28,781 nucleotides of DNA from contig NZ_SNUY01000058.1 in assembly GCF_004376175.1 (NCBI RefSeq), forward strand, positions 364 through 29,144, written 5' to 3'. The number at the start of each line of letters is the position of its first letter. Within the stretch, counting starts at the first letter, position 1. This stretch comes from Halalkalibacterium halodurans (lineage in GTDB: Bacteria > Bacillota > Bacilli > Bacillales > Bacillaceae_D). This document shows positions 14,388-22,324 of the stretch, piece after piece. The position numbers and the translations under genes were made by a program. The notes beneath the pieces are model-generated. The model saw only the letters and a list, made by a program, of their open reading frames with translations, did not search any database and was not told where the DNA came from.

Positions 14388-14852
14388 TCACGTGCCATCA
14401 CTTTGCTCTTCGTCTTTTTCGACCGGCAAGATATACCGGTATGGAACAGGAGAACCAATCACCGTAGACGTGTTAATGTTTCCATACGGGATAAGCTTAT
14501 CAATTAAGATCCTCATGCTGTTCATGTTCGGGACAGCCGCCTTCAACATATAGCTAACCTCTCCTGTCACCCGATGACATTCAATAATCATCTCTTCCGA
14601 TTTCACCATGTCTTCAAAGTCTTTTAACGGTACACGCAGTCCGCTCACTAGAATAATTAATAGCATGTCTCGTCCGACCCCTGCTAAGGAAATGCGAGCA
14701 CTATATTCTTCAATCACACCACTTTCTTGAAGCCGTTGCAACCGTTCAGAAACGCTCGGGCGGCTCAAGGCTAACTCTTTTGAAAGCTCGCTTATCGTCG
14801 TCCGTGCATTTTTTTGCAGCAGCTCAAGCAATTTTATATCAAGCTTATCCAT
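14388..14852 (-). CDS. Lrp/AsnC-family transcriptional regulator
   Basis: DKLDIKLLELLQKNARTTISELSKELALSRPSVSERLQRLQESGVI is the classic AsnC HTH, followed by a RAM domain. Start at ATG 14852 (AGGAGGG + 5 nt). Confidence 0.85.
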   Translation of the reverse strand: MDKLDIKLLELLQKNARTTISELSKELALSRPSVSERLQRLQESGVIEEYSARISLAGVGRDMLLIILVSGLRVPLKDFEDMVKSEEMIIECHRVTGEVSYMLKAAVPNMNSMRILIDKLIPYGNINTSTVIGSPVPYRYILPVEKDEEQSDGT

Positions 14853-15025
14853 ATCCACCCTCCTGTTTTACCATATTGAAGCCATCCTATAAAAAATACA
14901 TTCAAAATGGAGTCAATACTCACCTTTTTCATTCATTATACTATGCCCTATTTCCATTTAACATTCTAAAATTAAAAGTAGAGCATATGTTGCGCGGAAT
15001 TTTTAACAACGTAGGTGGGTTGCAC

Positions 15026-15661
15026 ATGAAGAAATGGCTGTGGATTTTTTTAGGCATTGTGATTACGAGCTGTGGCGTTATTTTATTACGTCATGCTAAC
15101 CTTGTTACTGGAGGGACAGCCGGGCTTTCCTTAGGCATGACGTATCTTTTCAATCTTCCGTTTGCGTTAACCTTTTTTCTCGTGAACGTTCCGTTTTACC
15201 TTTTTTCCTTGCTACGAATGGGTTGGAGCTTTACACGATCCACGATCATTTCTGTATCCTTGCTTTCCTTGGTGACGAGCTTAGACGTTTGGCTGCCTTC
15301 TTTCAACGTCCCTGTTTGGCTCGGTGCCGTATTCGGCGGCGGTTTGATTGGCCTTGGTCTATCGCTCATTTTTATGAATGGCTCGTCTTTAGGAGGGGCA
15401 AACATTTTGGCCCTCTACTTACAAAAACGATTGGCGATCGATCCAGGGAAAACAAACTTCTTGTTTGACGTTTCTGTTGTTCTTCTTAGCATGGTGTCCG
15501 TTGGCGTCATCCGCGGTCTTCTGTCGATCCTATCGATTGCGGTCACCTCTCGCATTATTAGCTACTTCAAAAAAGAGATCGCTAGCCGCCAGTTGGCTGA
15601 AAAACCGAAGTCCTCTTCTATGGCATCAACGCCAAATTCACGGATTCCAGTGGCAGAGTAA
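15026..15661 (+). CDS. YitT-family membrane protein (no C-terminal DUF2179 domain)
   Basis: TGGTAGLSLG and NGSSLGGANILALYLQKR...GKTNFLFDVSVV match the two YitT membrane repeats. Start at ATG 15026 (AGGTGGG + 6 nt). The track start 14780 overlaps the divergent Lrp gene. Confidence 0.65.
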   Translation: MKKWLWIFLGIVITSCGVILLRHANLVTGGTAGLSLGMTYLFNLPFALTFFLVNVPFYLFSLLRMGWSFTRSTIISVSLLSLVTSLDVWLPSFNVPVWLGAVFGGGLIGLGLSLIFMNGSSLGGANILALYLQKRLAIDPGKTNFLFDVSVVLLSMVSVGVIRGLLSILSIAVTSRIISYFKKEIASRQLAEKPKSSSMASTPNSRIPVAE

Positions 15662-15685: not shown

Positions 15686-15731
15686 AAAAGCCTGTATCGT
15701 CGATTACTAAGTAATCTTGATACAGGCTTTT
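15686..15731. terminator. Bidirectional terminator (long hairpin aaaagcctgtatc...gatacaggctttt)
   Basis: 13-bp outer stem plus an inner gattac/gtaatc stem, with T-runs on both strands. This is the first strong hairpin downstream of the ECF-sigma gene string. Confidence 0.7.
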
Positions 15732-15747
15732 TCAAAAAACCATTCGT

Positions 15748-16008
15748 TCAATTAGTCCTTAGCCTTGTTCTTTTCATTAGATAAAAGACGGCTGCGAGCA
15801 TGATGGGGATGACAGGGGTGTAAATAACCCAAGGAAACGGTGGATGCATGCTCACAAACCAAGCATTAGGGTAAAGTAAAATGGCACATACCACCATCCC
15901 AACCCATGAACGTTTCACAAAGGCATAGCCAAACAAAAGAACGGATGCAATGAGCAATGGATAAAACAAACTGAGAGCACCAAATAAGAAACTCATGACA
16001 CCTTCCAC
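15748..16008 (-). CDS. Small hydrophobic membrane protein, no family recognised
   Basis: 86 aa with 2-3 hydrophobic segments. GTG start with GGGAGGG 6 nt upstream. The terminator lies immediately downstream. Confidence 0.4.
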   Translation of the reverse strand: MEGVMSFLFGALSLFYPLLIASVLLFGYAFVKRSWVGMVVCAILLYPNAWFVSMHPPFPWVIYTPVIPIMLAAVFYLMKRTRLRTN

Positions 16009-16104
16009 AACCAGCCCTCCCCACTGTCACAAAGTTTGATCGTAAACATGATCTTTTCCTATGTTTTTCTATATTATAAAAGGATTTCCGAAAACGTTCT
16101 AGCT

Positions 16105-17454
16105 TTATTCTTTCGCTATTAGGAGTTTTGTTCCTGCCTCTTTTGTTCCCTGCTTCGTCGTAAACAGAATCGGATGAAGGCATAAGGCCATTCCTCCGAT
16201 GATGAGAAGCACAGCTCCGACAATCTGAAAGAGCAAAATGATGCCGATGAGATGAATAAGCCATGCCCCTAGAAGTGGTGGTAAAAGGATGGCCATGCTG
16301 ATCAAAGACTGATAGATTCCTGCCACCTGACTTACTTCCTGCTCCCTCGGCTCCGTCTGGATAATGTAATTGGAGACGACCATGGACGTACCTGTACCTA
16401 GCCCCGCGATCAATCCAAGCCCGATCGGAATCATCATGAGGAAGCCCTCCTGCAGCATCCCTATTCCCAAAAACGCAATCCCGATACAGATCATGGCCCC
16501 AGCCAACCACATCCCTACGTTACGCAGCTTCTTCATTCTGCCGAGAAAGGCCATCATGGCAATCGCACCAGTCCCGATCGCCGCCATGATCCACGCCACC
16601 ATTTGGGGCTGAGCGGCTGCAATTTGCCGAAATAAGACTGGGAACTGAATATCGACCATTTGAATTACCGACATTCCTAACAAAGCAATGGCGAAGGAAA
16701 AGTAAATGACCTTTCGCTTAAAAACGACTTGCCAGCCTGCTTTCCAACTTGCCCAGAACGATGACTGATTTTCCAAAGAAGTGTCCTTTTCTACTACTTT
16801 CACGTTACGAAACAAGGTCGTCAAGAGAAGCGCTGATAATAAAAAAGCAATGCCATTTAAGAGAATGAGCGTGTGAGGTGAGAACGCCGTTAGTAACGCT
16901 CCACCCCCCATCGGCCCAATGATTTTCGCCGCTTGAGAGACGGCGCCATTCCACGTAATCGCCTGCAATCGTAAATCGTCTCGTATAAGCTGCCTAAGCA
17001 AGCTTTGTTGGGCAGGGTAATGGACAACGTTGACAGTCGCTCGCAATGAGATGATTCCTAACACAACGAGAGGATGACCAGTGAACAAAAGCGAGATTGT
17101 GAGTAAAGACGTTACCCCATCCGCTACAGCCATAACCTTCACTTTGTGATACTTTTTAACAAATACACCAGCAAATTGGCCGAACAACATTTGCGGTAAT
17201 GCAAAGGCAATTGGAATGAACGCTAACAATAGCGGATCAGCGTTCCATACGTAGCCGAATAATACAAGAAGGGCGACAAGATCGAGCCACTGCCCAACCA
17301 TTGAAATGCTATAAGAAGTAAAGAGCTTTTTGTAACCTGGTTGCTGCCAAAGAGTCTCTCGTTTTTTCGTGGTCTTCACAAGAACCTTTTGTTTATGTGC
17401 TTCTTCCCATTCATTTAAACGATCTTCCACGATCGCCTCTCGACACGGGTCCAT
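16105..17454 (-). CDS. MFS transporter (MFS_3 / EntS-like type) with ~40-aa charged N-terminal extension
   Basis: 449 aa, 12-TM-like profile. Its start is 16 nt after the stop of the preceding ORF. Confidence 0.85.
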   Translation of the reverse strand: MDPCREAIVEDRLNEWEEAHKQKVLVKTTKKRETLWQQPGYKKLFTSYSISMVGQWLDLVALLVLFGYVWNADPLLLAFIPIAFALPQMLFGQFAGVFVKKYHKVKVMAVADGVTSLLTISLLFTGHPLVVLGIISLRATVNVVHYPAQQSLLRQLIRDDLRLQAITWNGAVSQAAKIIGPMGGGALLTAFSPHTLILLNGIAFLLSALLLTTLFRNVKVVEKDTSLENQSSFWASWKAGWQVVFKRKVIYFSFAIALLGMSVIQMVDIQFPVLFRQIAAAQPQMVAWIMAAIGTGAIAMMAFLGRMKKLRNVGMWLAGAMICIGIAFLGIGMLQEGFLMMIPIGLGLIAGLGTGTSMVVSNYIIQTEPREQEVSQVAGIYQSLISMAILLPPLLGAWLIHLIGIILLFQIVGAVLLIIGGMALCLHPILFTTKQGTKEAGTKLLIAKE

Positions 17455-17470
17455 TTTAGCCGCCTACTTT

Positions 17471-18667
17471 CTATAAGGACAATGTCCCGATGTTTTCAAC
17501 TTGAACTTCTTCTCTCACTTCACTAGCTACTGTCAAGATTCCGCTTATAAGGCGTCCCTTTCTCTGAATTAGCGCTTTTTGCGTAGCATGCTGAACAATT
17601 ACTTCGCCAAGGATATCCATTTCGCCAATCCGTTCGTTCAACAACGATTCTTCAATGTCCTCAGAAAGTGTTAAGATCCCATCAACAATGACCTCCGTCC
17701 CCTTTTCTAACCCAAGAAGGTCGCTAGCCGTCCAATCCTCCTCTTTTCCTACGTAACGCAATTGATTGGCAAAGGTGAGAACATCGGTTTCCAATCGTTC
17801 TAATCGTTCATAGATAAGATCTTCAATGTCTTCATGACAGACGATGAAAGAGGTGGAATGAATCGACGAAATGGCCTGTTCGAAAGCCTCTCGCGAAATT
17901 CCAGCTTCAAAGATAATCGGAGATTCCGTATAGATGGACTGCTGGCGAAAGCGCCGGATCGAGCGAGCATTGATTCGAAGGGAGGACGAAATCGGTTCAA
18001 ACCCTTCAGGAATGACAGTTGCGACTCCTGTTACTTGACCTTTTTGGTAAAACGCTGCTTGTTGGTTACTGTAGACCTTCACCTTCCCATTCACTTCAAT
18101 CGCCCAAATTTTCTCGTGAAAGAGGTCAAGATCAAGATCCGCCGCTAACGTTAATTGTCCATTGACGATCAGATGCGTGTTCGTTTGCAACCCTTGTAAA
18201 TAACCGTTCGTCATCATAACGACTCCTACTTCCAATCGTGGTGGCGCTCCTTCATATACTTTCACTTGTCCCGTTCCTTCCTTCAAAATGAGCCCAATTG
18301 CTCCCTTCAACTGAGGTGGAACAAAAAGGTTTCCTGTCATTTTTAATTGACAGGCCGTTCGTTTGATATGCTCGACCGTTACATCATGATCTACGACTAC
18401 GATTCCGGTCACAAGGAGCGTCATCGGTTCATCCACCGCTTCTAAATAGGCGGCATCCAACGTACAGACACCCGTGACAAACCGTGCATCCCCTGGAACC
18501 TCCAAGGTGGCACCTATATTTCCAATCGCTAGTTTCGTTAAAAGGTGGGCGTTTTCTTTTCGATATAGCACCGTACCAACATTCTTAATCGAATCCACTT
18601 CTTTAATGCTATCTTCCGTCGCCTCTAACAAATTTAAAACCCCGATATTGCCAAACGTGCGGCCCAT
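17471..18667 (-). CDS. Uncharacterised soluble acidic 398-aa protein with ~55-aa internal repeats; candidate non-canonical partner of the upstream ECF sigma factor
   Basis: Long ORF whose ATG lies 1 nt after the sigma gene stop. It has no TM-length hydrophobic stretch and no HxxxCxxC. Internal repeats are visible by eye (aa 62-116, 165-218, 325-380). Confidence 0.75.
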   Translation of the reverse strand: MGRTFGNIGVLNLLEATEDSIKEVDSIKNVGTVLYRKENAHLLTKLAIGNIGATLEVPGDARFVTGVCTLDAAYLEAVDEPMTLLVTGIVVVDHDVTVEHIKRTACQLKMTGNLFVPPQLKGAIGLILKEGTGQVKVYEGAPPRLEVGVVMMTNGYLQGLQTNTHLIVNGQLTLAADLDLDLFHEKIWAIEVNGKVKVYSNQQAAFYQKGQVTGVATVIPEGFEPISSSLRINARSIRRFRQQSIYTESPIIFEAGISREAFEQAISSIHSTSFIVCHEDIEDLIYERLERLETDVLTFANQLRYVGKEEDWTASDLLGLEKGTEVIVDGILTLSEDIEESLLNERIGEMDILGEVIVQHATQKALIQRKGRLISGILTVASEVREEVQVENIGTLSL

Positions 18668-18668
18668 A

Positions 18669-19142
18669 CTATCCTTCCTCCTTCATGTACTCTCGTAACT
18701 TTTTCACCGCAAGTCGAATGCGGTAACGCACCGTAGAAGCCGGTACGCCTACTTTTTCACTTATTTCTTGACTCGTTAGCCCAAGCCAAAAATGCTTGAA
18801 CACAAGATCACTTAACGATGCTGGCAGCTTAGACAAAAGATCGACCATTTCTACGTAAGATGTTCCTGCTGTTGTAAAGGGCGGGATCACACTATCATCC
18901 CAATCTGTTTCCCGCTTTTCCTTTCGCCTAATATCGATGAGCTGATTTTTCATCACCCGATAAAACCAAGCCTTTTGCTTATGCCTCGGCCAATCCAGTA
19001 ATTCCGTACACCTTAACGACTTTTCCATCGCGTCTTGTATTAAATCGTTCGCCTCTTGCTCGTTACGGCTAATGGTACGAGCAAATCGATATAGATCCTG
19101 TTTCAGCTCCTCATATAGCTCACTCACCTTCACATACGTCAC
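18669..19142 (-). CDS. ECF-type (group 4) sigma-70 family RNA polymerase sigma factor
   Basis: 157 aa with region 2 (ANDLIQDAMEKS...WFYRVMKNQLIDIRRK) and region 4 HTH (LTSQEISEKVGVPASTVRYRIRLAVKKL). The exact start is uncertain: GTG 19142, or GTG 9 nt downstream. Confidence 0.85.
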   Translation of the reverse strand: MTYVKVSELYEELKQDLYRFARTISRNEQEANDLIQDAMEKSLRCTELLDWPRHKQKAWFYRVMKNQLIDIRRKEKRETDWDDSVIPPFTTAGTSYVEMVDLLSKLPASLSDLVFKHFWLGLTSQEISEKVGVPASTVRYRIRLAVKKLREYMKEEG

Positions 19143-19280
19143 TCACCTTTTCGGCTTTTTCTTTTTCACTTAGATAACGAATGAAACCGAGAAATTGATA
19201 ACATGAAAGGAAAAAAATTTTTTGATGGCAATCAGGGGATCGTTCGGTTAGGGGAACCAGCATCATTGGGAAGGATGAAA

Positions 19281-19306
19281 ATACCCCTATCGCGATGATA
19301 GGGGGT
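19281..19306 (-). terminator. Terminator of the hmoA-like gene
   Basis: Stem cccctatc / gatagggg with a 5-nt loop, followed by tattttcat on the minus strand. Confidence 0.5.
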
Positions 19307-19312
19307 GACTCG

Positions 19313-19621
19313 TTATTTTTTCGCTAACACTTCATAAACGTCTTGACGGCCATCCAATATGTATGAAGGCTTTGGTATCCCACGATTTTCCCGATGTCCA
19401 GCTAGATGGGCGTCACTTTTCTCCCAAGTTTTCCACGCTTCTTCCGATTCCCAGCGAATGATGACCACCACTTCCTCATCTCCACGGCGCTGTTTTTTTC
19501 GCAGGATGTTCATATCAATAAACCCCGGCTGTTCTTCAATGAGTCCTTTACTAGCAAATTTTTCGACGATTTTATCGCTATGTCCCTCTTCTACACGTAG
19601 TGTTTTCACTTGAAAAAACAT
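19313..19621 (-). CDS. hmoA: ABM-domain heme-degrading monooxygenase (HmoA/YetG-like)
   Basis: 102 aa. RRGDEEVVVIIRWESEEAWKTWEKSDAHLAGHR is the ABM/IsdG-like core. Start at ATG 19621 (AAAGGAGG + 9 nt). A Fur site lies in the promoter. Confidence 0.7.
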   Translation of the reverse strand: MFFQVKTLRVEEGHSDKIVEKFASKGLIEEQPGFIDMNILRKKQRRGDEEVVVIIRWESEEAWKTWEKSDAHLAGHRENRGIPKPSYILDGRQDVYEVLAKK

Positions 19622-19644
19622 GAGATCATTCCTCCTTTCCTCCA

Positions 19645-19674
19645 ATTATATTTGATATTGATTATCATTATCAA
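19645..19674 (-). promoter_or_regulatory. Putative sigma-A promoter of hmoA (TTGATA-18 nt-TATAAT)
   Basis: -10 at 19645-19650 and -35 at 19669-19674 on the minus strand. Confidence 0.45.
19653..19673. promoter_or_regulatory. Fur operator: two overlapping 7-1-7 boxes offset by 6 bp
   Basis: tgatattgattatca (19653-19667) and tgattatcattatca (19659-19673) each differ from TGATAATNATTATCA at one position. They overlap the -35 and spacer of the hmoA promoter. Confidence 0.65.
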
Positions 19675-19714
19675 ATATAAAGTGGCTGCCTCGGTGCTAC
19701 CAAAGTGTTCAAAT

Positions 19715-20101
19715 TTATTCTTTACAGCATTGAAATTCTTCCAAAACTTTGGATTTGTCGCCATAAACCTTTTCTAGGTGATCCTCTCCCCAATAGCATA
19801 AAAGGTCTAGCGCAGGTTTTAATCCCCATCCATAGGGCGTTAACTCATACTCCACTTTAGGAGGGACCTCGTTATAAACCTTGCGTGTAATGATCTCATC
19901 CTTTTCCAAACCCCTGAGCTGAGTGGTTAGCATTTTTTGAGTAATGGCTGGCATTAACCGACGGAGCTCAGACGTTCGCTTACGACCTGTCATTAAGTGG
20001 TATATAATTAAAGGCTTCCATTTTCCTCCCATTACTTCTAAAGCCGCTTCCACTCCAACTTGATACTTCTTTTGACCGCCATTTTTCCTCTGTTCCGTCA
20101 T
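19715..20101 (-). CDS. HxlR-family winged-helix transcriptional regulator
   Basis: GGKWKPLIIYHL..G.KRTSELRRLMP.ITQKMLTTQLR.LE.D.II.RKVY.EVPPKVEYELT is the HxlR signature. Confidence 0.85.
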   Translation of the reverse strand: MTEQRKNGGQKKYQVGVEAALEVMGGKWKPLIIYHLMTGRKRTSELRRLMPAITQKMLTTQLRGLEKDEIITRKVYNEVPPKVEYELTPYGWGLKPALDLLCYWGEDHLEKVYGDKSKVLEEFQCCKE

Positions 20102-20340
20102 CTCCTAACCCTCCGTTACAAGGCTGTGTTTGCTTAGAACAACCAGTCCCCTCAACCCGTTACTCAGATTCGTTTTTAGGGGCTCTGCCTAGGGAACTTC
20201 CATGTTCCTATGGCACCTGGATCATCCTATAGAACTTAAAAGTACCTACTTCCAGATAATTTCCTTACTGTTTATAATAGCATCAGCCATTGATCAAGGC
20301 GAGAAATTAGTTGCTAAAGAAAGGTAGTGAAGATACAAAC

Positions 20341-20919
20341 ATGAAAGTATTAACCGTTGTTTCACACCCGAGAAAAGATTCCTTGACCTTTGAGGTAGCC
20401 GAGCATTTCGTAAAAGGCCTTACCGAGTCTGGTCACGAGTATGAAATATTGGATTTGCATGAGATTGGTTTTGATCCTGTTTTAAAAGGGGTAGATGAAC
20501 CGGATTGGTCAGTTGCGGAACAGCCATTTTCCCCTGAAGTAGAAATGGAAATAAGGCGGATGAAGGAGCATGATGCCTTGGCACTTATTTTTCCACTTTG
20601 GTGGTGGCATTTGCCGGCTATGCTAAAAGGGTATATTGACCGAGTATGGAATAACGGGTTTGCGTACGGTGCAAATCACCTTCATCATCAGCAAGTCTTG
20701 TGGATTGGTTTGGCCGGTGTTTCGAAAGAACAGATGAAAAAGCGTAACTATGATGAAATGATTACTCATCTGCTCAATGTGGGAATTGCAGATTATTGCG
20801 GTGTTTCCAATTCCAAGGTTGAATTCTTATATGAGACACTGGATTCCCATCCCAATCATTACGAAATGCTGCTGAACGAAGCTTATCGCTTAGGATTGAA
20901 CTATGACAAGGATCATTAA
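20341..20919 (+). CDS. NAD(P)H dehydrogenase (quinone) / flavodoxin-like fold FMN reductase
   Basis: MKVLTVVSHPRKDS... and IFPLWWWHLPAMLKGYIDRV match the Flavodoxin_2 family. It is divergent from the HxlR regulator. Start at ATG 20341. Confidence 0.8.
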   Translation: MKVLTVVSHPRKDSLTFEVAEHFVKGLTESGHEYEILDLHEIGFDPVLKGVDEPDWSVAEQPFSPEVEMEIRRMKEHDALALIFPLWWWHLPAMLKGYIDRVWNNGFAYGANHLHHQQVLWIGLAGVSKEQMKKRNYDEMITHLLNVGIADYCGVSNSKVEFLYETLDSHPNHYEMLLNEAYRLGLNYDKDH

Positions 20920-20966
20920 TATTAAAGAGCTCCGTTTTATGCAAAATGCTCAATATAACAAAACAC

Positions 20967-22202
20967 TTACGCTCTCTGGGTGGTTTCCTCGGAACCAACA
21001 GGCTGATGATTCAGTTGATAAAATACGTGCATCCTCCATGCAAGCAATGTAGATACGAGCATAAGCCCGCCAAGAATGAGAAATAACACTTGAAATCGGT
21101 ACGCCTCTGCTAGGAGACCTCCTACTCCGGCTCCTAATGGAATCGCTGATTGGGCGAGCAAGGCCCGTACAGTAAACACACGGCCACGCAGATGTTCTGG
21201 TACCCGCCGCTGGTAAAAGGTCGTATTGTTAATCGTAAACGCCATTGCGAAGAAGCCTTGCATGGTTGCAATCCCAATGGCAATCCAGATGCTTGTAATG
21301 AACCCAAGGGCCATCATGAGAAAGGAAGAGACGGTCAAGCAGCCGAGCATCACACGTCGCAAATTTTTTGGTGGTGGGTACAATCCGCACAAAAATGAGC
21401 CAAGGACCATTCCTAAAGAATAGACTGACATAAACAAGCCGTACTGAAATTCCGTCCCATGTAAATGCTCAAGGACGTAGGGCAAAAACATAGGCAAAGC
21501 AGCACCACTGCTAAAATTAATCATCATCATTAGCAAACCAACCGAAAACAACACTGGATATACTTTGTAAAAGGACATCCCTTCTTTGAACATTGTCAGC
21601 CATGAGGCTCGATCATTCGTTTTCGCGCGATGTACACGATCCAGCATTAAAAGCAAAAAGCCTGATACCGTTAAGGCGATCACAATAAAAACGAGCAGTG
21701 GCAATGGACCGACTAAGACGATGAGTCCTCCGCCTAGAGCGGGACCGATAAGCATGACGATTTGCATTGTTCCTTCGAGGATCGAATTGCCTCGCTGTAG
21801 ATGTTTTTCCGGTAAAATATGAGCCACATAAGCCATCCCAGCAGGGCGAAACAGCGGTTCCGCAATCCCGGTGAGCACGGCTGCCATAATCAAGACGGGA
21901 GCCGTTAACATGTCTCCTACCAACAAGACGGTCGGCACGAAAAAGGCGACGGCACGAATCCACTCGGACGCAACCATTACCACTTTATATTGAAACCGAT
22001 CTAGATACGGACCTGCGACTAGATTGGTCAGCAGCTTTGGAATCATAAAGGCAATCCAAACCCCGCTCATCGCGACAAGGGAGTCGGTCAATTGGTACAT
22101 GAGCCAACTGACTGTAAACGTAGTGAAGGTACCTCCAAGGGCGGAAACGCTTTGTGCGATCCACAAAACGACGAAAGGCCGTTTAAAAAAAGGCTGATCC
22201 AT
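20967..22202 (-). CDS. MFS transporter (MFS_3 / EntS-like type)
   Basis: 411 aa, 12-TM-like profile. N-terminus ...FVVLWIAQSVSALGGTF is typical of this MFS subgroup. Confidence 0.85.
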   Translation of the reverse strand: MDQPFFKRPFVVLWIAQSVSALGGTFTTFTVSWLMYQLTDSLVAMSGVWIAFMIPKLLTNLVAGPYLDRFQYKVVMVASEWIRAVAFFVPTVLLVGDMLTAPVLIMAAVLTGIAEPLFRPAGMAYVAHILPEKHLQRGNSILEGTMQIVMLIGPALGGGLIVLVGPLPLLVFIVIALTVSGFLLLMLDRVHRAKTNDRASWLTMFKEGMSFYKVYPVLFSVGLLMMMINFSSGAALPMFLPYVLEHLHGTEFQYGLFMSVYSLGMVLGSFLCGLYPPPKNLRRVMLGCLTVSSFLMMALGFITSIWIAIGIATMQGFFAMAFTINNTTFYQRRVPEHLRGRVFTVRALLAQSAIPLGAGVGGLLAEAYRFQVLFLILGGLMLVSTLLAWRMHVFYQLNHQPVGSEETTQRA

Positions 22203-22286
22203 TGGTCACACGCTCCCTTCAATGATGGATAATAATCGTCCCTCCAACTGTATAAGTCCTTCTCTGCGGGAAAAACGCAACTAATG

Positions 22287-22324
22287 AAAAAAGCGCCAGG
22301 GGTATAGACACCCCTAGCGCTTTT
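22287..22324 (-). terminator. Rho-independent terminator of the coat protein gene
   Basis: 10-bp GC-rich stem gcgccagggg / cccctagcgc, whose imperfect pair is G-U on the minus strand. A T-run follows on the minus strand. Confidence 0.7.

What the first reader, a model, noticed from the sequence alone, without database searches (positions are those of the whole stretch)
15748..19142. ECF sigma factor coupled to a soluble 398-aa repeat protein instead of a recognisable anti-sigma factor, followed by an MFS pump
Seen in the sequence: the 157-aa ECF-type sigma gene (18669-19142, regions 2 and 4 only) stops 1 nt before the ATG of a 398-aa ORF (17471-18667). A 449-aa MFS gene (16105-17454) starts 16 nt further on. 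After 96 nt with no terminator hairpin comes an 86-aa hydrophobic ORF (15748-16008). The first strong terminator is at 15686-15731, so all four genes look co-transcribed. Established: the gene translationally coupled downstream of an ECF sigma is normally its anti-sigma factor. That is usually a single-pass membrane protein with an N-terminal helical anti-sigma domain, often carrying HxxxCxxC. The 398-aa product differs on every count. It has no hydrophobic run longer than about 9 residues, only three scattered Cys, no HxxxCxxC, an acidic composition and a repeat-built architecture. I do not recognise it as any named family. Inference: it is a candidate cytoplasmic, non-canonical regulator (anti-sigma, sensor or adaptor) of this sigma factor, with the MFS transporter as output or signal-coupling partner.
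Basis: partly seen in the sequence, partly recalled or inferred. Interest (0 to 1): 0.7.

Follow-up and report, generated by a model that had tools for sequence, protein, structure and literature searches.

The report
ECF sigma with conserved soluble repeat-protein partner
An alternative sigma factor gene in Halalkalibacterium halodurans is always paired, here and in over 100 other bacterial loci, with a gene for an uncharacterised soluble 400-residue repeat protein that sits where an anti-sigma factor normally sits, making it a strong candidate for a new structural class of sigma-factor regulator.

Summary
On the minus strand lie an ECF sigma gene (18669-19142), a 398-aa gene (17471-18667, "X") that starts 1 nt after the sigma stop, an MFS gene, an 86-aa membrane ORF and a strong terminator.

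X is soluble and acidic. It has four homologous modules of about 85 aa behind a conserved N-terminal cap. It has no anti-sigma domain and no significant match in the PDB or BFVD.

The sigma-X pair is the conserved unit.
- From X: 39/39 genome loci, 7/7 very distant relatives and the closest relative (A. xiaoxiensis) have this sigma directly upstream.
- From sigma: 52/53 assessable relatives at 31% identity or more have X at +1. More distant relatives carry membrane anti-sigma-like proteins there instead.

A conserved autoregulatory promoter (CCAACAC-N14-CGTTATCT) matches published group ECF213. No regulator was found for the Bacilli subgroups of that group.

The MFS gene is linked in only two genera, and the 86-aa ORF in one species.

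Best reading (about 0.55): X is the cognate cytoplasmic anti-sigma or sensor of this clade, built on a new fold.

The parts
19284..19304 (-). Terminator-like hairpin ending the upstream ABM-family gene (19313-19645). It marks the sigma operon as a separate transcription unit.
   Evidence: 8-bp stem, 5 GC pairs, T-run. One search gives the neighbour's Pfam ABM annotation in the near-identical locus L049.
19166..19209 (-). Autoregulatory ECF-type promoter. The -35 element lies at about 19193-19201 (TTATCAATT, against the family consensus CCAACACTT). The -10 element CGTTATCT lies at 19172-19179.
   Evidence: It is the only PWM hit in the window: score 25.2, next best -2.6, shuffle maximum 15.3. 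The same motif lies upstream of sigma in 34/39 genome loci, in 5/7 distant loci and in most metagenome loci. It matches the ECF213 s3/s5 motif CCAACA-Xn-CGTTATCTA.
18669..19142 (-). ECF (group 4) sigma factor gene. The true start is probably GTG 19133, giving 154 aa.
   Evidence: Sigma70_r2 and r4_2, TIGR02937. Orthologues at 50-60% identity occur in 39/39 loci. Start-codon reasoning.
18672..18684 (-). Ribosome-binding site for X (GAAGGAGGAAGGA), embedded in the last codons of sigma. The sigma stop TAG is at 18669-18671, followed by 1 nt and then the ATG at 18665-18667.
   Evidence: The equivalent GGAGGAGGA with stop/start spacing of -4 to +2 nt occurs in all 39 genome loci.
17471..18667 (-). 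Gene for X, a 398-aa soluble acidic repeat protein: N-cap residues 1-54 (18506-18667), module B 55-140 (18248-18505), module C 141-225 (17993-18247), module D 226-315 (17723-17992), module E 316-398 (17474-17722).
   Evidence: AF2 model pLDDT 89.8, pTM 0.70. Module homology. Conservation pattern. No TM segment and acidic charge. Family size of 623 representative clusters.
16105..17454 (-). MFS efflux-type transporter (449 aa), 16 nt downstream of X. It is a lineage-specific addition and not part of the conserved module.
   Evidence: Pfam MFS_1 and MFS_3, TIGR00900 below cut-off. An orthologue at 46% identity lies after X only in A. xiaoxiensis L050. It is absent from all other loci.
15748..16008 (-). 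86-aa hydrophobic ORF with about 3 TM-like segments. It is found only in H. halodurans and may have its own promoter (TATAAT in the 96-nt spacer).
   Evidence: No family match.
15686..15731 (-). Strong intrinsic terminator hairpin with a 13-bp outer stem. It also faces the convergent YitT-family gene at 14780-15661 (+).
   Evidence: dG -27.5 kcal/mol, z = -6.63, 0/200 shuffles as stable.

Best explanation
The sigma gene and X form a self-contained, autoregulated two-gene signalling module.

The ECF sigma factor transcribes its own operon from the conserved promoter CCAACAC-N14-CGTTATCT. X is made in fixed proportion by translational coupling.

X is a cytoplasmic, acidic solenoid-like protein. 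It has a conserved N-terminal cap and four homologous modules of about 85 aa, each made of Gly-centred strand/helix units of 22-24 residues. I propose that X binds the sigma factor directly and holds it inactive, so it acts as an anti-sigma factor. A cytoplasmic cue would then release sigma. The cue could be a ligand, a partner protein, or proteolysis or unfolding of X.

X therefore fills the role that a single-pass membrane anti-sigma factor fills in the neighbouring sigma clades, but with an unrelated fold and an intracellular input.

In H. halodurans and A. xiaoxiensis an MFS efflux gene has been appended to the operon. There it is probably a local output by read-through.

What is shown:
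- gene anatomy and coupling
- near-obligate co-occurrence in both directions
- the conserved promoter
- solubility and repeat architecture
- absence of any known anti-sigma domain or catalytic signature

What is inferred:
- that this sigma recognises the conserved promoter
- that X binds sigma
- that the effect is inhibitory
- the nature of the signal
For: (1) X to sigma. In 39/39 genome loci from Neobacillus, Planococcus, Planomicrobium, Halobacillus, Indiicoccus, Tuberibacillus and others, the orthologous sigma ends -4 to +2 nt from the X start, with a GGAGGAGGA RBS. In 7/7 very distant members (about 20-27% identity, loci at 29-67% GC) an ECF sigma lies directly upstream and nothing else is conserved.

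(2) Sigma to X. In a metagenome scan seeded with the sigma alignment, 52/53 assessable sigma relatives at 31% identity or more have X at +1. The one exception has a truncated sigma gene.

(3) Positional replacement. Sigma relatives at 24-30% identity that lack X (L123, L126, L127) have a +1 protein with a TM segment and an anti-sigma-like N-terminus. Casas-Pastor et al. found 1-TM anti-sigma factors at +1 for ECF213 s1/s4/s7 but none for the Bacilli subgroups s3/s5/s6.

(4) A conserved autoregulatory promoter creates positive feedback that needs a brake. It is the only such site in the 28.8-kb window.

(5) X looks like a binding scaffold and not an enzyme. Across 118 representatives (median 25% identity), the conserved positions are Gly, Asn, Pro and hydrophobic residues at repeat periodicity. 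The family is uniformly acidic (99% have pI below 6) and none has a TM segment. The model is confident.

(6) No intact-sigma/no-X locus and no X/no-sigma locus was seen. Two of the three decayed loci (L113, L128) have lost both genes' integrity. In the third, L049, sigma is nearly intact and X is N-terminally truncated.
Against: - No direct evidence of sigma-X interaction.
- X has none of the defining features of known anti-sigma domains, so the assignment rests on context alone.
- Conserved coupling would also be expected for an obligate co-factor or for a co-expressed effector.
- Sigma pI is variable (5.0-11.0), so there is no consistent charge-complementarity argument.
- One H. halodurans strain carries a near-intact sigma with X truncated to residues 152-398. 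So loss of the X N-terminus is at least tolerated.
- The regulon is unknown. Only small ORFs with a second sigma-type promoter were seen, in 6 other loci.
Confidence: 0.55

Rival explanations
1. X is the main co-transcribed effector or cargo of the operon. It would be a cytoplasmic scaffold or structural repeat protein whose production is the purpose of the sigma factor, and it would not control sigma activity. Sigma would be controlled elsewhere, for example transcriptionally.
For: X has no anti-sigma domain. No other conserved target gene lies nearby, and the only sigma-type promoter in the window drives sigma-X itself. Repeat proteins of this kind are often scaffolds. The weak structural resemblances are to LRR/FNIP solenoids.
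Against: An autoregulated sigma with no inhibitor would be a runaway positive loop. The stop/start overlap is conserved across phyla, which is typical of stoichiometric partners. Out-clade relatives have anti-sigma-like proteins at exactly this position. In six loci further sigma-type promoters drive other small genes, so X is not the only output.
Confidence: 0.2
2. X is a positive partner. It would be a co-factor, chaperone or sensor-adaptor that sigma needs in order to be stable, to bind core RNA polymerase, or to be activated. This would resemble the TPR or WD40 C-terminal extensions of some ECF sigmas, but supplied in trans.
For: Co-occurrence is obligate in both directions. Repeat domains are known to act as activating extensions on other ECF groups (review PMC8999054). 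Two of the three decayed loci have lost both genes together, rather than leaving sigma alone.
Against: This sigma has complete sigma-2 and sigma-4 domains and needs no complementing subunit. Gene order and coupling match the anti-sigma convention. Canonical anti-sigma factors occupy the homologous position in neighbouring clades.
Confidence: 0.15
3. X is a ribbon-helix-helix DNA-binding transcription regulator, as the Pfam RHH_8 label carried by several members in databases would suggest.
For: The whole-protein score on PF17723 is 26.9 bits against a cut-off of 25.4. Of 23 members, 20 hit weakly.
Against: No single stretch passes on its own. The match covers only profile positions 57-116 of 119, not the N-terminal RHH part. 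Only module B matches individually, at 13.7 bits. The predicted structure is a repeat solenoid with no RHH motif.
Confidence: 0.03

Closest known systems
ECF sigma group ECF213 (Casas-Pastor et al. 2021, NAR 49:986; supplement of bioRxiv 10.1101/2019.12.11.873521), Bacilli subgroups s3/s5/s6
   Same: The predicted promoter CCAACA-Xn-CGTTATCTA is identical to the motif found here. The taxonomy is the same (class Bacilli). The sigma has a minimal sigma-2/sigma-4 architecture.
   Different: [quoted passage not shown] Here a conserved +1 partner is identified. The X-linked clade also appears wider than Bacilli: it includes Clostridium, loci at 58-67% GC, and one locus with a T9SS-tail neighbour.
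Canonical ECF sigma / class I anti-sigma pairs (for example SigW-RsiW, RpoE-ChrR, SigH-RshA)
   Same: The gene order is sigma then partner, with translational coupling, an autoregulated operon and one partner per sigma. ChrR, RshA and RseA show that cytoplasmic anti-sigma factors exist.
   Different: X has no helical anti-sigma domain, no zinc motif and no TM helix. It is a 400-aa strand/helix repeat protein with no significant PDB or BFVD match.
ECF sigma factors with repeat-containing C-terminal extensions (TPR-type groups, WD40-type ECF57; review PMC8999054)
   Same: A protein-interaction repeat domain is dedicated to one ECF sigma factor and presumed to sense a cytoplasmic partner.
   Different: Those domains are fused in cis and are activating or modulating. 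X is a separate polypeptide, and its repeat type is unrelated to TPR or WD40.
Tt-RpoE1 / Tt-TolB of Thermoanaerobacter tengcongensis (PMC3397946)
   Same: A Firmicute ECF sigma whose immediately downstream, oddly annotated gene was shown experimentally to be the anti-sigma factor. The sigma is autoregulated.
   Different: Tt-TolB is 645 aa with a TM helix (residues 39-61) and binds sigma through a 39-residue N-terminus. Its promoter is tGTTAC-N16-CGTC. It is not related to X.
Pfam PF17723 (RHH_8)
   Same: One X module weakly resembles the C-terminal half (positions 57-116) of this profile.
   Different: The ribbon-helix-helix part is not matched. X is about three times longer and consists of four such modules plus a cap.

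Membership tests
ECF (group 4) sigma-70 family (the sigma gene) | Sigma-2 and sigma-4 domains only, with no sigma-3 or sigma-1.1 | tested here: met
   Pfam Sigma70_r2 (residues 9-77) and Sigma70_r4_2 (98-149) only. TIGR02937 scores 75 bits against a cut-off of 42.9.
ECF213 (ECF classification 2.0) | Group-specific predicted promoter CCAACA (-35) / CGTTATCTA (-10) upstream of the sigma gene (subgroups s3, s5) | tested here: met
   The window has ATCAAT...CGTTATCTA at 19166-19209. The orthologue consensus is CCAACACTT-N12-TCGTTATCTA. The published motif is cited.
ECF213 (ECF classification 2.0) | Assignment by the group or subgroup HMMs of ECF Hub | not testable with these tools
The supplement file with the sequences was cut when stored.
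Class I anti-sigma domain (ASDI/ZAS), for X | N-terminal helical bundle of about 80-90 aa (zf-HC2, RskA and related profiles) | tested here: not met
   No Pfam or NCBIfam anti-sigma profile matches. The predicted N-terminus is strand-rich with only short helices.
Class I anti-sigma domain (ASDI/ZAS), for X | HxxxCxxC zinc motif (ZAS subclass) | tested here: not met
   The motif is absent. There are only 3 scattered Cys, of which only C277 is conserved, at 79%.
Membrane-anchored anti-sigma factor, for X | At least one transmembrane helix | tested here: not met
   The maximum 19-residue hydropathy is 1.34 in X and no higher than 1.84 in 118 representatives.
Anti-sigma factor (functional definition), for X | Direct binding to, and inhibition of, the cognate sigma factor | not testable with these tools
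No experimental data were found.
Pfam RHH_8 (PF17723), for X | Whole-protein score above the gathering threshold | tested here: met
   26.9 bits against 25.4. It is a sum of weak repeats and no single stretch is significant.
Pfam RHH_8 (PF17723), for X | N-terminal ribbon-helix-helix DNA-binding motif | tested here: not met
   Only profile positions 57-116 are matched, and only by module B.
Leucine-rich repeat / FNIP-type solenoids, for X | Significant sequence or structure match to LRR families | tested here: not met
   No LRR Pfam hit. Best Foldseek E-values are 7e-3 (PDB) and 2.8e-2 (BFVD), with TM-scores below 0.25.
Major facilitator superfamily (gene 16105-17454) | MFS_1 profile and multiple TM segments | tested here: met
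   MFS_1 scores 106 bits, plus MFS_3. Many TM-like windows are present.

The most novel reading that the evidence does not exclude
X-type proteins are a previously unrecognised structural class of cytoplasmic anti-sigma factor. They are a cap-plus-four-module strand/helix solenoid with no anti-sigma domain. They regulate an entire ECF clade (ECF213-like) present in Bacillales, Clostridia and probably other phyla, and they sense an intracellular signal.
Probability: 0.5. Interest if true: 0.75.

Novelty: new variant of a known kind. Interest (0 to 1): 0.62.

Why it matters
ECF sigma factors are one of the largest bacterial signalling families. For many groups the regulator is unknown. For the Bacilli subgroups of ECF213, the published classification states explicitly that none was found.

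This analysis assigns those subgroups a conserved partner. The partner family numbers hundreds of 50%-identity clusters, has no annotation, and has no structural relative in the PDB.

If X binds and inhibits sigma, it would add a new fold to the short list of anti-sigma architectures. It would also be a new, purely cytoplasmic input route into ECF signalling. The compact and apparently orthogonal sigma / partner / promoter triplet (CCAACAC-N14-CGTTATCT) could be useful for synthetic circuits.

The hypothesis is directly testable. The promoter, both genes and even a natural N-terminal deletion allele of X are defined.

Tried and rejected
(1) Pseudo-complex AF2 prediction. There is therefore no interaction model.

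(2) Structure and sequence searches for a known fold.
- Foldseek against the PDB and BFVD gave nothing at E below 1e-3.
- A profile search of PDB sequences gave nothing below E = 0.38.
- NCBIfam gave no hit.
- PADLOC gave no hit for X, the MFS or the 86-aa ORF, and only an insignificant HTH match for sigma.

(3) RHH_8 as an identity for X was rejected. Only the non-RHH half of the profile matches, and weakly.

(4) Tt-RpoE1/Tt-TolB as the same system was rejected. It has a TM protein and a different promoter.

(5) The MFS and the 86-aa ORF as part of the conserved module were rejected. They are linked in 0/39 genome loci and in only L049/L050 among all 130 loci.

(6) A mobile-element origin was not supported. 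tblastn found no match in the plasmid or phage collections.

(7) Additional sigma-type promoters in the window were sought as regulon members, and none was found.

(8) Literature searches for ECF213, PF17723, RHH_8 and novel soluble anti-sigma factors found no description of this family.

(9) Charge complementarity between sigma and X was dropped. X is uniformly acidic, but sigma pI ranges from 5.0 to 11.0.


Full report
**1. The observation**

The window comes from Halalkalibacterium halodurans: the 398-aa product is 100% identical to a hypothetical protein of that species.

On the minus strand lie, in order:
- an ECF-type sigma gene (18669-19142)
- a 398-aa ORF, here called X (17471-18667)
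- a 449-aa MFS gene (16105-17454)
- an 86-aa hydrophobic ORF (15748-16008)

The sigma has only Sigma70_r2 and Sigma70_r4_2 domains and passes TIGR02937.

The junction reads GAA GGA TAG T ATG. One nucleotide separates the sigma stop from the X start, and a strong RBS (GAAGGAGGAAGGA) lies in the last sigma codons. X and the MFS gene are 16 nt apart.

The hairpin at 15686-15731 folds at -27.5 kcal/mol (z = -6.6) and is a credible terminator. A separate terminator-like hairpin at 19284-19304 closes the upstream gene.

X has no TM-like segment, a pI of 4.84, three Cys and no HxxxCxxC.

- The sigma start is more likely GTG 19133 (154 aa), because the RBS overlaps the GTG at 19142 and orthologues are 154-159 aa.
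- The spacer before the 86-aa ORF holds a perfect TATAAT, so that ORF may have its own promoter.

**2. What X is**

X has no NCBIfam, PADLOC or anti-sigma Pfam match.

It scores marginally on Pfam RHH_8 (26.9 bits against a cut-off of 25.4). No single stretch is significant. Only profile positions 57-116 are matched, which is the part outside the ribbon-helix-helix motif, and only module B of X matches on its own. The label is therefore misleading.

An AlphaFold2 model built from 23 homologues is confident (pLDDT 89.8, pTM 0.70). It shows alternating strands and short helices. Foldseek finds nothing significant in the PDB (best E 7e-3, TM below 0.2; insulin-receptor L domains and LRR proteins) or in BFVD (LRR/FNIP proteins, E at least 0.028). 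A profile search of PDB sequences is also negative.

hhalign on sub-alignments shows four tandem homologous modules: residues 55-140, 140-225, 225-320 and 315-398. Pairwise probabilities are 96.7-99.4% with E from 5e-10 to 4e-21. The modules follow an N-terminal cap of about 55 residues.

Across 118 representatives (median 25% identity to X), the conserved positions are almost all Gly, Asn, Pro and hydrophobic residues. Gly recurs every 22-24 residues. There is no catalytic constellation. The N-cap is the most conserved part.

All 118 representatives lack TM segments, and 99% have a pI below 6.

An exhaustive profile search finds 623 representative clusters at 50% identity with E up to 1e-3, and 170 with E up to 1e-30. 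Nearly all are full-length at about 400 aa. X thus belongs to a sizeable, unannotated family of soluble repeat proteins.

**3. The conserved unit is sigma plus X**

Starting from X:
- In 39 of 39 loci from reference genomes, the orthologous sigma (50-60% identity) ends -4 to +2 nt from the X start, with a GGAGGAGGA RBS. The genera include Neobacillus, Planococcus, Planomicrobium, Halobacillus, Indiicoccus and Tuberibacillus.
- No other gene is shared by all loci.
- Seven of seven very distant family members also have an ECF sigma immediately upstream and nothing else in common. They include Clostridium amylolyticum, loci of 58-67% GC, and one locus whose neighbours carry a T9SS sorting tail.

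Starting from sigma:
- A metagenome scan with a sigma alignment returned 80 loci.
- Of sigma relatives at 31% identity or more with enough downstream DNA, 52 of 53 have X at +1. The one exception (L128) has a truncated sigma gene.
- All but one of the no-X cases lie at 24-30% identity. Three of them (L123, L126, L127) encode a +1 protein with a TM segment and an anti-sigma-like N-terminus.

The MFS gene is linked to the pair only in H. halodurans and in Alkalihalobacillus xiaoxiensis, where it is 46% identical and lies 13 nt after X. The 86-aa ORF is found only in H. halodurans.

X is not found on plasmids or phages in the collections searched.

**4. Promoter and classification**

A conserved ECF-type promoter, CCAACACTT-N12-TCGTTATCT(A), lies upstream of sigma:
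- in 34 of 39 genome loci
- in the window (19166-19209, with a slightly diverged -35)
- in 5 of 7 distant loci
- in most metagenome loci, with invariant spacing

A PWM finds only this one site in the 28.8-kb window: score 25.2, next best -2.6, shuffle maximum 15.3.

The motif equals the predicted promoter of group ECF213, subgroups s3 and s5 (CCAACA / CGTTATCTA), in the ECF classification of Casas-Pastor et al. That work found one-TM anti-sigma factors at +1 for the Chloroflexi and Planctomycetes subgroups. [quoted passage not shown]

No paper in the searchable library discusses ECF213, this partner family, or a comparable soluble repeat regulator. The Tt-RpoE1/Tt-TolB pair looked similar at first. 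It is a membrane anti-sigma with a different promoter.

**5. How it most likely works**

The anatomy is that of an autoregulated sigma/partner module. It has a positive-feedback promoter, stoichiometric coupling, obligate co-occurrence, and a partner that sits where neighbouring clades have canonical anti-sigma factors.

The most economical reading is that X is the cognate anti-sigma factor or sensor. It would be cytoplasmic, built on a new fold, and would bind sigma through its solenoid surface. The highly conserved N-cap is the best candidate contact. Confidence is about 0.55.

Rival readings:
- X as a co-expressed effector (0.2)
- X as a positive co-factor (0.15)
- X as an RHH DNA-binding regulator (0.03)

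The decisive missing piece is any evidence of physical interaction.

**6. Side observations bearing on function**

Another H. halodurans assembly is 99% identical but lacks window 18232-18691. That leaves sigma short by only its last 10 residues. X is reduced to residues 152-398, preceded by its own internal AGGAG-ATG.

Two metagenomic loci show analogous decay. L113 has a junction deletion. L128 has a truncated sigma and no X.

In six other loci, a second promoter of identical spacing drives small ORFs of about 50-65 aa. These are the only hints of a regulon.

**7. Verdict**

The proposed role of the MFS pump is lineage-specific at best.

Relative to what is known, this is a new variant of a known kind: a sigma/regulator pair with a structurally novel, unannotated partner family. 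It also fills a stated gap in the ECF classification.

Noticed in passing
window 18232-18691 (compared with locus L049, assembly GCA_036223865.1): A second H. halodurans assembly is 99.2-99.6% identical to the window but has a 460-bp deletion across the sigma/X junction, with short microhomology at the breakpoint. Sigma ends ...RIRLAVKS (its last 10 residues are lost). X is reduced to residues 152-398. This is either a natural N-terminal truncation allele of X or an assembly artefact.
   Followed up: partly
window about 18218-18231 (minus strand, inside X): An internal AGGAG-N5-ATG lies at Met150/151 of X. In the deletion strain it sits directly after the new sigma stop. It could also act as an internal start in the intact gene.
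   Followed up: no
loci L097/L101 (3872/2089), L105 (1876), L090 (6259), L031 (3808), L014 (4237): Second sigma-type promoters (CCAACAC-N14-CGTTA[TG]) occur next to the module. Each is followed by an RBS and a small ORF of about 50-65 aa, for example MKNLYKAQDP...ILREWSGHMARLL and MFDFNQAIVKQRIHDMIKEAEEYRLARQL.... These are candidate regulon members. No equivalent exists in the window.
   Followed up: partly
loci L113 and L128: These are decayed copies of the module. L113 has sigma residues 1-120 followed directly by an ORF matching X positions 245-400, which is a junction deletion like the one in H. halodurans. L128 has sigma residues 1-101 only and no X within 3 kb.
   Followed up: partly
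window 19133-19142: The sigma start codon is probably GTG 19133 and not GTG 19142. The Shine-Dalgarno sequence AAAGGTGAG overlaps 19142, and orthologues begin at the equivalent of 19133.
   Followed up: yes
window 16009-16104: The 96-nt spacer between the MFS gene and the 86-aa ORF contains a perfect TATAAT, with a weak -35 (TAGAAC) 17 nt upstream. The small membrane ORF may be transcribed independently.
   Followed up: no
window 22273-22287 (compared with L049 503-1413): The other H. halodurans strain carries about 0.9 kb extra here. It encodes a 302-aa HTH_5/HTH_20 regulator upstream of the second MFS gene (window 20967-22202). The window strain lacks it.
   Followed up: no
window 19313-22202: Immediately upstream of the sigma operon lies a cluster of small detoxification and regulatory genes. 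By the Pfam annotations of the near-identical locus L049 these are: ABM monooxygenase-like (19313-19645), HxlR regulator (19715-20101), Flavodoxin_2/FMN reductase (20311-20919, + strand) and a second MFS_3-type transporter (20967-22202). No sigma-type promoter was found among them.
   Followed up: partly
loci L021, L022, L023, L026, L038 (Neobacillus novalis/vireti group): These five X-linked loci lack the CGTTATCT -10 element upstream of sigma, although sigma and X are intact. Autoregulation may have been lost or re-wired in this subgroup.
   Followed up: no
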